Below, in pieces: positions 54,034 through 56,471 of a stretch of 64,000 bases of DNA (within the stretch, counting starts at the first letter, position 1; the number at the start of each line of letters is the position of its first letter). This DNA is from a virus. The DNA is taken from positions 13,642-77,641 of IMG/VR virus record IMGVR_UViG_3300027864_001020; one strand, given 5' to 3'. The position numbers and the translations under genes were made by a program. The notes below the pieces were generated by a model. That model had not been told where the DNA came from and made no database searches. It saw only the letters and a list, made by a program, of their open reading frames with translations.

Positions 54034-55064
54034 GCTTTTTCTCTTTCAAACAAGTCTTCAAGCCTCGCCGCTTCGTCATCTTGAAAAGCCGGATTTTTTT
54101 CGGTAGTGGCTGCCGGTTTGCTTGCCGGTTTTTCGGGAGTTGGTTCTTTGCTTTCGGTTTTTGTTTCCGCTTCTTGCTCAACTGTTTCTTCAAAATCTTC
54201 AGCATCGGAAATATTATCATCAGCGTTGTAAGAAACAGCGTCAACATATTGCACGTTTTCATAGTCAATAGGCTTACTGAAATCTCTTATAACGGCTTGA
54301 TCTGCCATATTAGCAGTTTGCATTGTTACAGATAAAATTCCCCATTTTGAAATAAGATTTTTTAACGGTGTTTTCGCATACATCGAGTGCGGATCTTTCT
54401 GCCACAAGCTATTAGGATTCTTGAATGATTTTGAGAACCTTTTACCATGCGCTTGCAACCTGCTCATTGACCAATATTCGATTCGCTCAAACCCATTTAA
54501 CAGGCGGAAATATGCGGCATATCCAATTATTTTGTCGAGATTTTCCCGCTCTCTATATCCGTTTGCTACAGGGTGTATTTTAACCTCACCGGTTATAATG
54601 TCGTATGATTCAAATTCGTCTTCATAAACCGGCGTAACATTTATTGTTTTATATTGCCCTGTACGTAGCGCAAGCTGAATAAAACCCTTATACATGATCT
54701 GGAATTGAGCAAGAGATACCCATGTTTCTTCTGTTACCTCTTTGCCGTCTTTCATAACCTTCTTTTTAATTTTAGTATTGTAAGGAACTATCGCAGCAAA
54801 ACCTAAATTTGAATCAATAGGCAGATCAAGGGTTGCCGCTACCATTGCCGATGACAATATTGATTTTTGATCGCATTTAGACAATTCAGGGTTTTTCTGC
54901 GTAGCGTTTAACACTGACGCAAGGAAGGAAGGGGCTTTTTCTCCCATAACTTCCATAAACCTGTTTTTAACATAATCAGAGTTGATTAAATCTTTTAAAC
55001 TCTGAACCGGCGAACGTTCTAAGGCTCCGCCTTTTTCGTTTTGATCACTTCCGTCTGTTTTCAT
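54030..55064 (-). CDS. recT: RecT-family single-strand annealing protein
   Basis: SAMVAATLDLPIDSNLGFAAIVPY...AQFQIMYKGFIQLALRTGQY...MYAKT. Confidence 0.92.
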   Translation of the reverse strand: MKTDGSDQNEKGGALERSPVQSLKDLINSDYVKNRFMEVMGEKAPSFLASVLNATQKNPELSKCDQKSILSSAMVAATLDLPIDSNLGFAAIVPYNTKIKKKVMKDGKEVTEETWVSLAQFQIMYKGFIQLALRTGQYKTINVTPVYEDEFESYDIITGEVKIHPVANGYRERENLDKIIGYAAYFRLLNGFERIEYWSMSRLQAHGKRFSKSFKNPNSLWQKDPHSMYAKTPLKNLISKWGILSVTMQTANMADQAVIRDFSKPIDYENVQYVDAVSYNADDNISDAEDFEETVEQEAETKTESKEPTPEKPASKPAATTEKNPAFQDDEAARLEDLFEREKA

Positions 55065-55083
55065 AATATCCTCCTAAAATAAT

Positions 55084-55173
55084 TTGCCTTGCCTTGCAAA
55101 ACAGCGCCAAACATGGCATCACTACGCATTGCTGCTCTTCGCAATACATTACAACGCAACGCAACGCGCCACA
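55084..55173 (-). repeat. Pentamer array 2: 18 x (NGY-NN)
   Basis: tgtgg cgcgt tgcgt tgcgt tgtaa tgtat tgcga agagc agcaa tgcgt agtga tgcca tgttt ggcgc tgttt tgcaa ggcaa ggcaa; 17/18 fit NGY. Confidence 0.9.
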
Positions 55174-55195
55174 TTGATTTTTTATCTTTATTCCC

Positions 55196-55290
55196 TTGCC
55201 TTGCTAAACTTCGCATCACAACGCCAGAACTCGCAATACCTAACAACGCTGTACACCGCTTTGCTCCACAGTACAATACACAACATTGCA
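55196..55290 (-). repeat. Pentamer array 1: 19 x (NGY-NN)
   Basis: tgcaa tgttg tgtat tgtac tgtgg agcaa agcgg tgtac agcgt tgtta ggtat tgcga gttct ggcgt tgtga tgcga agttt agcaa ggcaa; 18/19 fit NGY. Confidence 0.9.
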
Positions 55291-55293
55291 ACA

Positions 55294-55860
55294 TTATTTT
55301 TCCTCTTCCCATTTTGTAACAATAAATCTGCCAAACGGACCCTTTCTTGCAGGGCGAAAATCACCTAACCCGACTTTTGATCCTGCGTCATCTACCAAGA
55401 GGCGGACAAATTTCGGATTAAACATCGCTTCGTCAACGGCAAGCGTGAAATCTGTTTGCCAAACATCTAATCGCGGTCTATGGCACATAATCCGACCGCC
55501 GGTTGACGGAATAACAACGCTTCGGCTGTCAACTTCAAATTCTTTTGTGTTTAACGGACAGACAATTTCTTCGATAGTTATTCCGGCAGGAATCAAACTT
55601 GATTTTTGTGTAGTTACTTTAGTTTTTCCTACTTTATGGAAAGAGCCAGCCGCAATTAAACAGGCAAATATATTCGGTCCCGGTATATAAAGATTTCCTT
55701 CTCCATCGCTGTATGTTTTTGGCAGTGCTTGATCTCGCGGTGTACCTTTATTACCAACCGAAACAGACGATGTTCCCGAAGATACTTTGATCTCGTTCGC
55801 TTCAGTAAAACGATTCATAATTAAAGGCGTTTTACCCTGTATTGAAACTTTTATTTTCAT
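55294..55860 (-). CDS. RAMP/Cas7-like protein
   Basis: N-terminal KVSIQGKTPLIM strand, central YIPGPNI, C-terminal Gly-rich loop GSKVGLGDFRPARKGPFGRF; likely start at 55860. Confidence 0.65.
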   Translation of the reverse strand: MKIKVSIQGKTPLIMNRFTEANEIKVSSGTSSVSVGNKGTPRDQALPKTYSDGEGNLYIPGPNIFACLIAAGSFHKVGKTKVTTQKSSLIPAGITIEEIVCPLNTKEFEVDSRSVVIPSTGGRIMCHRPRLDVWQTDFTLAVDEAMFNPKFVRLLVDDAGSKVGLGDFRPARKGPFGRFIVTKWEEEK

Positions 55861-56471
55861 TTTTTGTTCCTTGATTTTAACCACAAGACTTCATATAACC
55901 GCCTTGTGGCTTTAATATCTGACATTGCGCCGTGCGCATCTGCGTGTTCAATGCCGAGCGCTTTTGTCATTGTTTCGAGTTTTTGATTTTTCGTTTTAAT
56001 TTTTAACTGTGGCGCAAGCTGTTTTACTACATCAAAAACATCTATCAACCTTCCGCTAAAAAAGAAATTCATATCAATACCGCATCTGTCAAAAAGTGCT
56101 TTGACATGACCATAATCAAAACCGCAATTATAACCTGCGAAAACGAATTTATTGTCAGCGTCAGCATGATCATTCATACCGTTATACGACCATTGGATTA
56201 ACCAATCGGCAATTTCTTTCATAACAATTTCTGCCGATGGGTACGATCTTATTGTTTCCTCTGACACGCCATGAACTTTATACGCGCCTTCGTGAAACAG
56301 TATTTGATCATTCAATGGGTTTAAGTGAAATTCCTTTTCGCCTACAAGAACATGAGACATTTTTCCGTCAATTTCTTTATCCTGATATACCAATATTGCT
56401 ATTTCAAAAGCTGCGGAGTTAGTCGGATCAATGCCGGTTGTTTCAACATCACACCATACTACTGTCATCAT
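55857..56471 (-). CDS. DnaQ/DEDDh 3'-5' exonuclease
   Basis: WCDVETTG, AGYNCGFD, HGAMSDI. Confidence 0.88.
   Translation of the reverse strand: MMTVVWCDVETTGIDPTNSAAFEIAILVYQDKEIDGKMSHVLVGEKEFHLNPLNDQILFHEGAYKVHGVSEETIRSYPSAEIVMKEIADWLIQWSYNGMNDHADADNKFVFAGYNCGFDYGHVKALFDRCGIDMNFFFSGRLIDVFDVVKQLAPQLKIKTKNQKLETMTKALGIEHADAHGAMSDIKATRRLYEVLWLKSRNKK

What the first reader, a model, noticed from the sequence alone, without database searches (positions are those of the whole stretch)
55084..55860. RAMP/Cas7-like gene followed by two NGY-NN pentamer arrays: candidate non-CRISPR RNA-guided system
Seen: on the minus strand, 3 nt after the stop of a 188-aa gene, there are 19 in-phase pentamers (55290-55196), a 22-nt A-rich linker, then 18 more (55173-55084). 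35 of 37 pentamers start N-G-Y (mostly TGY/AGY) and end in a variable dinucleotide. Both arrays end in GCAA-GGCAA. Known: the protein's N-terminal strand, YIP motif and terminal Gly-rich loop are hallmarks of RAMP (Cas7/Csm3-like) RRM folds, which polymerise on RNA with a fixed nucleotide step. Inference: each array is a guide RNA; the constant triplet is bound by one protomer and the NN pairs are displayed for gapped target pairing. From memory this resembles recently reported phage RAMP plus GGY/NN repeat ('VIPR'-type) systems, which I cannot verify here. The TGY/AGY triplet would be a variant. No cas genes or CRISPR repeats are in the window.
Basis: partly seen in the sequence, partly recalled or inferred. 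Interest (0 to 1): 0.95.

Follow-up and report, generated by a model that had tools for sequence, protein, structure and literature searches.

The report
Phage VIPR guide-RNA system, relaxed repeat
This termite-gut phage carries a VIPR system (a small Cas7-like protein plus guide RNAs made of 5-base repeats), a CRISPR-related DNA-silencing system first described in 2026 preprints, so it is a further example of a known kind and not a new one.

Summary
On the minus strand, 3 nt after the stop of a 188-aa gene, lie 19 and then 18 in-phase pentamers. 35 of 37 fit N-G-Y-N-N, and nothing else in the window comes close.

The protein is a Vipr:
- It matches the solved SUSP1 Vipr chain by sequence (E 4.5e-9).
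- It folds as a Cas7-type RAMP.
- Its best AlphaFold-DB neighbours are the five founding Vipr accessions of the VIPR paper.

In 75 related viral loci the homolog is almost always flanked by same-strand pentamer arrays. Their NN dinucleotides differ completely, and many end in a conserved motif, about GCAAGGCAAGG. Guides of this clade match genes of rival related phages best under the published 1-nt-skip rule, with the skipped base on the codon wobble position.

The T/A-rich first triplet base corresponds to the 'YNNNG' repeat class already named in the VIPR paper's Methods. It coincides with Asn in place of the G1-contacting His of SUSP1 Vipr. No conserved accessory gene is present.

No target was found for this phage's own guides, and no RNA data exist. 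A third array lies just outside the window. This scan has already noted VIPR-type loci in at least 24 other genomes. Verdict: a new member of a known kind.

The parts
55294..55860 (-). vipr gene, 188 aa: a Cas7-like RAMP that is the protein subunit of the VIPR filament. Its ATG overlaps the TGA of the upstream gene (ATGA).
   Evidence: phmmer hit to PDB 36pp_D 'SUSP1 Vipr protein', E 4.5e-9. BLASTP to SUSP2 Vipr over residues 3-181, E 2e-16. Model pLDDT 83.8. All top 50 listed PDB fold matches are CRISPR RAMP subunits. AFDB rank 1 is X1U2U4. PHROG 4652, no Pfam family. SUSP1 R138/D177/W178/R179 align with R128/D167/F168/R169.
55206..55290 (-). vr1 guide body: 17 N-G-Y-N-N pentamers. The NN pairs carry the presumed targeting information.
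   Evidence: The same layout is seen after the stop codon of homologs in related loci.
55194..55205 (-). vr1 conserved 3' end: AGCAA GGCAA GG, in register with the repeats.
   Evidence: The motif GCAAGGCAAGG occurs only twice in the 88-kb genome, at the two array ends. Family-wide enrichment at array ends is shown.
55174..55193 (-). A-rich linker between vr1 and vr2. It is presumed single-stranded and a possible site of endonucleolytic separation (inference).
   Evidence: Sequence. No Rfam family or ribozyme is found here.
55099..55173 (-). vr2 guide body: 15 N-G-Y-N-N pentamers.
55084..55098 (-). vr2 conserved 3' end: TGCAA GGCAA GG, then CAA. It can form a small hairpin with the preceding TTTT.
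   Evidence: The hairpin is not conserved across the family, so the sequence motif is the conserved feature.
55062..55075 (-). Shine-Dalgarno AGGAGG and the ATG of recT, 9 nt after vr2. This shows the arrays sit inside a same-strand gene string. It is context and not a part of the system.
   Evidence: RecT family, E 6e-40.

Best explanation
The locus is a VIPR (Viral Interference Programmable Repeat) system of an uncultivated termite-gut phage or provirus. The 188-aa Vipr protein is a minimal Cas7-like RAMP. The two arrays downstream are genes for guide RNAs (vrRNAs), and a third array lies about 9 kb away, just outside the window. By homology with the SUSP1 system solved by cryo-EM, one Vipr protomer binds each pentamer. 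The thumb and glycine-rich loop flip out and hold the constant part of the unit, here mainly G2 and Y3. The two variable bases of every unit are presented to pair with double-stranded DNA that carries the same dinucleotides separated by one skipped base (NNx). The resulting filament blocks transcription of the bound gene, most likely in a competing phage or other mobile element in the same host. Each guide ends in a short conserved in-register motif (GCAAGGCAAGG), where the SUSP1 type has a long pseudoknot tail. The arrays lie between vipr and recT with no convincing promoter or terminator of their own. They are therefore probably transcribed with the early operon and cut out or protected by Vipr binding. 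What is shown here: the periodic arrays, protein homology and fold, family-wide linkage of protein and arrays, hypervariable NN, the conserved 3' end, and the 1-nt-skip and wobble behaviour of this clade's guides. What is inferred from the literature: filament assembly, DNA binding and silencing. What is unknown: the targets of this phage's three guides.
For: Arrays: 35 of 37 pentamers fit NGY, unique in the window.
Protein:
- E 4.5e-9 to the solved SUSP1 Vipr chain.
- Full-length BLASTP match to SUSP2 Vipr, E 2e-16.
- The residues that contact G2 and Y3 align with R128, F168 and R169; R128 and R169 are invariant in the family alignment.
- Confident RAMP fold.
- The five founding Vipr accessions are AFDB ranks 1, 2, 3, 6 and 8.
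Family: 1561 homologs. In 75 IMG/VR loci, same-strand in-phase arrays start within about 25 nt of the stop and/or just upstream of the start. Position 2 is G and position 3 is Y everywhere, while NN differ completely.
3' end: NN is AA in 43-56% of the last three repeats against 12.5% in interiors. The strict 11-mer is found at 46 of 235 array ends against 11 per 2614 interior repeats.
Code: among 192 guides searched against 570 kb of fetched phage DNA, the seven best matches all use the 1-nt skip (E 5e-5 to 3e-3). The best shuffled guide gives 0.016 and the best hit under the 0- or 2-nt skip rules gives 0.011. Guides from five loci hit the homologous gene directly upstream of vipr in four rival phages, and the skipped base falls on codon position 3 in all 8 mapped targets.
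Other: no self-target in the phage's own genome, as the paper reports for other VIPR loci. The record is an IMG/VR provirus. No CRISPR repeats and no Cas1.
Against: No target was found for vr1, vr2 or vr3 in any collection I could search. No RNA library holds the locus, so transcription, processing and binding are untested. The canonical first G of the GGY triplet is present in only 19% of units. No accessory vap gene is conserved next to vipr in this clade. The long structured tail that caps SUSP1-type vrRNAs is absent. The N-terminal region that forms the target-contacting helical bundle in SUSP1 Vipr is poorly modelled here (residues 23-34 have pLDDT below 50).
Confidence: 0.92

Rival explanations
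1. The arrays are a protein-coding gene. Automatic gene callers place a 77- to 83-aa ORF over them (55061-55312, minus strand).
For: One frame is open across both arrays. A called gene of 77 aa covers them on an independent contig. 73 of 95 long arrays in the family have at least one open forward frame.
Against: The constraint has a 5-nt period, which does not fit codons. The open frames follow from the composition, since G-Y at fixed positions removes most stop codons. Arrays in homologs differ in number, length and every NN, so no peptide is conserved. There is no ribosome-binding site, and the putative start lies inside vipr. The partner protein is homologous to one shown to bind exactly such RNAs.
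Confidence: 0.02
2. The arrays act as DNA, for example as iterons or a protein-binding array of a replication origin, because they sit in the replication and recombination module.
For: The neighbours are a RecT recombinase, a DEDDh exonuclease and an SMC-like ATPase. Phage origins often contain short periodic repeats.
Against: The arrays are strand-specific and always co-oriented with vipr in 75 loci that have otherwise unrelated neighbours. Iterons conserve the whole unit, whereas here two of five bases are hypervariable. The guides of this clade match rival phage genes by the RNA-guide rule.
Confidence: 0.03
3. It is a VIPR locus, but its guides do not attack a competitor. They could be decoys, regulators of the phage's own early operon (vr2 abuts the recT ribosome-binding site), or directed at a host gene.
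For: No competitor target was found. Decoy and non-canonical uses of vrRNAs are documented for SUSP1 satellites. vr2 matches 29 of 36 guide bases at the 3' end of a bacterial clpC-like gene in a metagenome contig.
Against: No self-target exceeds the shuffled-guide null. The clpC match is only marginal after correcting for 54 seed hits, and it lies in a conserved peptide motif. The collections searched hold little termite-gut virus diversity, so a missing target is weak evidence.
Confidence: 0.05

Closest known systems
VIPR systems in general (Vipr protein plus vrRNA; bioRxiv 10.64898/2026.04.26.720920), including the alternative 'YNNNG' repeat class named in that paper's Methods
   Same: A small stand-alone RAMP protein with an RRM core, thumb and G-loop. 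Adjacent same-strand arrays of pentamers with a constant part and hypervariable NN. A conserved 3' end. A phage or provirus location with no cas genes or CRISPR array. The 1-nt-skip, wobble-aligned matching of this clade's guides to rival phage genes. The best structural neighbour is X1U2U4, the paper's search seed.
   Different: Nothing that defines the family differs. I could not assign one of the seven types because the supplementary tables are not held. The lack of any conserved accessory gene fits the one type that the paper's count (seven types, six vap genes assigned to types II-VII) leaves without a vap. That is my inference, and no hammerhead ribozymes were found to support it.
Type II VIPR of Escherichia phages SUSP1/SUSP2 and the Pseudomonas fulva prophage (experimentally characterised; cryo-EM in 10.64898/2026.04.26.720927)
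   Same: Homologous protein (25-27% identity, full length). Conserved thumb Arg (R128) and a G-loop Asp-aromatic-Arg (D167, F168, R169). One pentamer per protomer is expected. Arrays lie directly next to vipr.
   Different: SUSP arrays are strict GGT/NN, have 7-13 detected units per vrRNA in SUSP2 (the paper gives 9-16 repeats) and carry a long conserved tail (about 40 nt and a pseudoknot per the papers), followed by the accessory gene vap1. Here the first triplet base is free (G 19%). The His that contacts G1 aligns with Asn16. The 3' end is an 11-nt in-register motif. Guides have 15-17 units. No vap is present.
Cas7/Csm3 backbone subunits of class 1 CRISPR-Cas effectors
   Same: The same fold and the same logic of a protein filament on a guide RNA, with a thumb that breaks pairing at a fixed step.
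   Different: 10-15% identity only. No second RRM or other cas genes, no CRISPR repeats, no Cas1. The step is 5 nt with 2 paired bases, where class 1 effectors have a step of 6 with 5 paired. The guide information lies inside the repeats and not in spacers.

Membership tests
VIPR system | Protein homologous to an experimentally characterised Vipr | tested here: met
   phmmer E 4.5e-9 to PDB 36pp_D 'SUSP1 Vipr protein'. BLASTP E 2e-16 over residues 3-181 to SUSP2 Vipr.
VIPR system | Minimal RAMP fold: RRM core, thumb hairpin and glycine-rich loop, without a second RRM | tested here: met
   Model pLDDT 83.8 with order beta1, helix, thumb hairpin 109-131, helix, G-loop 164-178, beta4. All top 50 listed PDB matches are CRISPR RAMP subunits. 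AFDB ranks 1, 2, 3, 6 and 8 are the five founding Vipr accessions.
VIPR system | Tandem pentamer arrays next to vipr with a conserved part and hypervariable NN | tested here: met
   35 of 37 pentamers in the window fit the pattern. Arrays flank the homolog in nearly all of 75 loci, with unrelated NN.
VIPR system | Canonical GGY constant triplet | tested here: not met
   The first base is G in only 7 of 37 units. The unit instead fits the alternative YNNNG class that the paper itself includes in the family, so this does not exclude membership.
VIPR system | Invariable 3' extension capping each vrRNA | tested here: met
   A short conserved end, GCAAGGCAAGG, occurs at both window arrays and is strongly enriched at array ends family-wide. 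It is much shorter than the SUSP1 tail.
VIPR system | Guides match natural targets by the 1-nt-skip rule, with the skipped base on the wobble position | tested here: inconclusive
   Met for the clade: the seven best of 192 guides all use skip 1, and the skipped base is on codon position 3 in all 8 mapped targets. Not met for the window's own three guides, for which no target was found.
VIPR system | Viral or proviral location without cas genes or a CRISPR array | tested here: met
   The record is an IMG/VR provirus of 88 kb. No CRISPR-type direct repeats. No Cas1.
VIPR system | vrRNAs of about 100 nt are expressed and co-purify with Vipr | not testable with these tools
   No RNA run was listed for this locus.
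VIPR system | Accessory vap gene next to vipr (typical, not universal) | tested here: not met
   The window's neighbours recur in at most 1 of 75 loci. The commonest neighbour family in the clade occurs in 16 of 75 loci.
Type II VIPR (SUSP1 clade) | Strict GGY/NN, a roughly 40-nt pseudoknot tail and vap1 | tested here: not met
   Comparison with the SUSP2 locus L151. None of the three features is present here.
CRISPR-Cas class 1 effector | Cas7 encoded with other cas genes and a CRISPR array | tested here: not met
   The PADLOC library gives no hit for the protein.

The most novel reading that the evidence does not exclude
This large vap-less clade may be a mechanistically distinct, minimal VIPR design with three linked features. 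First, replacing the G1-contacting His by Asn (N16) frees the first base of the triplet, so only G-Y is read by the protein. Second, a short in-register GCAAGGCAAGG cap replaces the pseudoknot tail as the filament end signal. Third, the guides are carved out of a polycistronic early mRNA, not made as separate transcripts. The evidence does not exclude this. His at that column is seen only in loci with 67-100% G at position 1 (three cases). Position 1 composition tracks genome GC as the NN positions do. The skipped target base shows no pairing with position 1 (39 of 115 matches).
Probability: 0.35. Interest if true: 0.4.

Novelty: new member of a known kind. Interest (0 to 1): 0.3.

Why it matters
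VIPR was described only in 2026, and all experiments so far are on the SUSP1 and P. fulva type. This locus belongs to a large clade (1561 homologs) that consists of protein and RNA only, with a relaxed repeat and a very short 3' end. That makes it a compact candidate for testing which parts of the system are really needed. It also shows that routine annotation misses these loci: the arrays are called as a small ORF, TRF and Rfam do not see them, and the 2023 PADLOC library does not recognise the protein. For biology in general it is ordinary, because the system, its code and its variant repeats are already in print.

Tried and rejected
Target searches:
1. The phage's own genome under 0- to 3-nt skip rules: nothing above the shuffled-guide null.
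2. IMG/VR with six 9-repeat NNx seeds for vr1 and vr2 and the full vr3 guide: 9 seed hits (none for vr3), all at chance outside the seed. L080 matches 11 consecutive 3' repeats but only 3 of 14 bases upstream, so I treat it as unproven.
3. Metagenome contigs with the vr2 middle seed: 51 loci. Several share a conserved peptide motif that the codon-like seed encodes. The best, L127, scores 29 of 36 in the 3' end of a bacterial clpC-type gene, which is marginal after multiple testing.
4. Genome collection with the vr1 middle seed: 13 hits, all at chance.
5. Whole records of five close relatives with up to 3 mismatches, and the closest relative scored in both directions: nothing.

Hypotheses tested and dropped:
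- Position 1 is a third guide base that pairs with the skipped target base. The match rate is 39 of 115, against 35 of 119 for the same-repeat control.
- A conserved accessory gene. None is found.
- Hammerhead ribozymes between vrRNAs. None is found in the window or in 20 related loci.
- A conserved hairpin in the 3' end. It is present in vr2 only and is not conserved in the family.

Expression: no RNA run was listed.
Type assignment: not possible because the supplementary tables are not held.

Full report
OBSERVATION. I read the region on the minus strand and parsed it by script. The 188-aa ORF 55294-55860 ends in TAA, and 3 nt later 19 pentamers run from 55290 to 55196. A 22-nt A-rich linker follows (55195-55174), then 18 more pentamers (55173-55084). 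Position 2 is G in 36 of 37 units and position 3 is a pyrimidine in 36 of 37. Position 1 is T 21, A 8, G 7, C 1, and positions 4-5 vary. No other 90-nt window on either strand of the 64-kb window reaches 12 of 18 in-phase NGY units, whereas the arrays reach 17 of 18. Tandem Repeats Finder sees only a 3.2-copy fragment. Rfam has no match. Gene callers place a 77-aa ORF over the arrays.

THE PROTEIN. Pfam gives nothing significant and PHROGs gives family 4652 of unknown function. A sequence search of PDB chains finds 36pp_D, 'SUSP1 Vipr protein', at E 4.5e-9. BLASTP against the SUSP2 homolog aligns residues 3-181 with 4-187 at 25% identity, E 2e-16. An AlphaFold2 model built on 28 homologs is confident (pLDDT 83.8, pTM 0.79). 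It has the order strand, helix, long beta-hairpin, helix, glycine-rich loop, strand. All 50 top listed PDB matches by Foldseek are CRISPR RAMP backbone subunits or effectors: type III Csm/Cmr complexes, type VII, and Cas7-11. In the AlphaFold-DB clusters the best match is X1U2U4 (TM 0.78/0.82). A0A0F9A1L0, A0A661D0E2, A0A1F4YLN4 and A0A2D6XG06 are at ranks 2, 3, 6 and 8. These are exactly the five accessions that the VIPR discovery paper lists as its founding hits, and X1U2U4 was its PSI-BLAST seed.

KEY RESIDUES. The cryo-EM paper names the residues that hold the constant triplet. The thumb Arg138 and the G-loop Asp177, Trp178 and Arg179 of SUSP1 align with R128, D167, F168 and R169 here. In the family alignment R128 and R169 are invariant and D167 is nearly invariant.

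THE LITERATURE. VIPR systems are described in three 2026 bioRxiv preprints. The published points that matter here are:
- Vipr is a minimal RAMP.
- vrRNAs are arrays of GGY/NN pentamers with an invariable 3' tail.
- One protomer binds one repeat and hides GGY.
- The NN pairs recognise double-stranded DNA with one skipped base per unit, usually the codon wobble base.
- The outcome is transcriptional silencing of competing phages and satellites.
- Seven types exist, and alternative repeats 'NNNGG, YNNNG and NNNNG' were found.

The unit in this window, N-G-Y-N-N, is YNNNG read in another register.

THE FAMILY. The protein has 1561 homologs at E 1e-3 or better. I fetched 75 IMG/VR loci with 40-82% identity. 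In nearly all that have enough flank, in-phase NGY arrays lie on the same strand, starting within about 25 nt of the stop codon, or just upstream of the start, or both. Some loci carry 15-20 arrays. Position 2 is G and position 3 is a pyrimidine throughout. The fraction of G at position 1 ranges from 2% to 100% between loci. The NN dinucleotides are unrelated between loci, but many arrays end alike, in about GCAAG GCAAGG, in register with the repeats. NN is AA in 43-56% of the last three repeats against 12.5% in array interiors. The strict 11-mer is at 46 of 235 array ends against 11 per 2614 interior repeats. In the 88-kb genome GCAAGGCAAGG occurs only at the ends of the two window arrays. 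This is the two-part layout of a vrRNA, a variable body with a constant 3' end, with a much shorter end than in SUSP phages. SUSP arrays are strict GGT/NN followed by a long conserved tail (about 40 nt per the papers) and the accessory gene vap1.

DOES THE PUBLISHED CODE HOLD IN THIS CLADE? I took 192 distinct guides from the phage genome and the 75 loci. I scored them against all fetched phage DNA (570 kb, both strands) under 0-, 1- and 2-nt skip rules, with shuffled guides as the null. The seven best matches all use the 1-nt skip, with E from 5e-5 to 3e-3. The best shuffled guide gives 0.016 and the best hit under the other two skip rules gives 0.011. Guides from five loci hit the homologous gene of roughly 105-191 aa that lies directly upstream of vipr in four other, related phages. 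Three of those guides converge on L056:217-270. In all eight mapped targets the skipped base falls on codon position 3 of a long ORF covering the site, on either strand. So this clade uses the published rule and aims at rival relatives. The skipped base equals position 1 of the next repeat in 39 of 115 matched units, against 35 of 119 for a same-repeat control. There is thus no sign that the free first base is read.

THE RELAXED FIRST BASE. SUSP1 His17, which hydrogen-bonds G1, aligns with Asn16 here. Across the loci, His at that column occurs only in L071 (position 1 is 100% G), SUSP2 (strict GGT) and L066 (67% G). Almost all others have Asn, with G anywhere from 8% to 86%. The G+C content of position 1 follows the GC content of the flanks (Spearman 0.45, p 4.5e-4), about as strongly as positions 4-5 do (0.48). 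I read this as a weakly constrained position that drifts with genome composition. The T/A richness here fits a 39% GC genome. The link to Asn16 rests on three His cases and is an inference.

CONTEXT. The window lies in an 87,970-base IMG/VR provirus record that is 74% complete. It comes from termite-gut metagenomes and has no close relative among deposited phages. The gene string on this strand is an SMC-like ATPase, two small ORFs, a DEDDh exonuclease whose stop overlaps the vipr start, vipr, vr1, vr2, and then recT. The recT Shine-Dalgarno sequence begins 9 nt after vr2. None of these neighbours accompanies vipr in the other loci, apart from L001. The commonest neighbour families in the clade occur in at most 16 of 75 loci and are ordinary replication genes. 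So vipr plus arrays is a self-contained module without a conserved accessory gene. No convincing promoter or terminator separates the arrays from the flanking genes. I therefore infer co-transcription with the operon and later processing. There are no CRISPR-type repeats and no Cas1.

A THIRD GUIDE. Scanning the whole record found a third array at G000:C1:78138-78197 on the minus strand, about 500 nt beyond the window's end. It has 12 of 12 NGY units, ends in TGTTT GGCAA GG, and is again followed directly by the ribosome-binding site of the next gene.

TARGETS OF THIS PHAGE'S GUIDES. None was found.
- Own genome: best 25/38 and 23/36, inside the null. This agrees with the absence of self-targets in the paper.
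- IMG/VR with six seeds plus the full vr3 guide: only chance-level hits.
- Metagenome contigs: the best match is 29 of 36 in a bacterial clpC-type gene, which is marginal.
- Genome collection: chance only.
- Five close relatives' whole records, and the closest relative in both directions: nothing.

Termite-gut viruses are thinly sampled, so this is weak negative evidence.

POPULATION AND EXPRESSION. No RNA run was listed. In a second termite-gut study, contigs that match recT with one difference and the 3' half of vipr with none stop exactly at the two borders of the array region. That would fit strain-level variation in the guides, but a gap in contigs proves nothing.

VERDICT. Both the observation and the interpretation stand. 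The locus meets the defining features of a VIPR system that can be tested in silico. It is not the SUSP1 type. Its repeat class is already named in the discovery paper. This scan has already noted VIPR-type loci in at least 24 other genomes. It is a new member of a known kind. Three modest points may be new: the Asn-for-His pocket residue, the short conserved 3' end, and the clade's targeting of the gene upstream of rivals' vipr.

Noticed in passing
G000:C1:78138-78197, minus strand (would be window 64497-64556, just past the window's end): A third vrRNA-like array: 12 of 12 NGY pentamers in an intergenic gap. It ends in TGTTT GGCAA GG and is followed directly by a Shine-Dalgarno sequence and the ATG of a 57-aa ORF. 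No target was found for it.
   Followed up: partly
window 55061-55312 (-) and L083:3189-3422: Automatic gene calling annotates a 77- to 83-aa ORF across the two arrays. This is almost certainly a false gene. TRF, Rfam and PADLOC 2.0 also fail to flag the locus.
   Followed up: yes
window 55857-56471 (-): A DEDDh (RNase T family) exonuclease whose TGA overlaps the vipr ATG, which suggests translational coupling. It matches PADLOC's generic Cas-associated DEDDh model (E 3.8e-22). It is not linked to vipr in the other loci, so it is probably an ordinary phage exonuclease paired with RecT.
   Followed up: partly
L056:217-270, L054:2752-2787, L075:2689-2739, L046:2715-2756: Guides from five different related phages target the homologous gene of roughly 105-191 aa directly upstream of vipr in rival phages. 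The skipped base is always on the wobble position. This suggests an arms race centred on the vipr neighbourhood in this clade.
   Followed up: partly
L127:5580-5633 (metagenome contig SDBT01005589.1): vr2 matches 29 of 36 guide bases (10 consecutive perfect units) in the last codons of a bacterial clpC-type AAA+ chaperone gene. This is marginal after correcting for 54 seed hits and is probably a conserved-motif coincidence.
   Followed up: partly
L080:131-184 (IMG/VR contig): vr2 repeats 8-18 (22 bases) match perfectly inside a metallophosphatase-like phage ORF with the skipped base on the wobble position. The first seven repeats match only 3 of 14 bases.
   Followed up: partly
L053, L066, L060, L047: Some relatives carry very large guide sets. 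L053 has about 20 arrays spread over 6.5 kb plus a tRNA gene. L066 has 15 consecutive arrays. L060 has one run of 97 in-phase units. L047 has a 40-unit array.
   Followed up: no
window 55091-55307, in run X2: In a second termite-gut study, contigs matching recT (one difference) and vipr (none) end exactly at the two borders of the array region. In the source sample a variant contig replaces 55080-55527 with 344 other letters. This may reflect strain-level guide variation.
   Followed up: no
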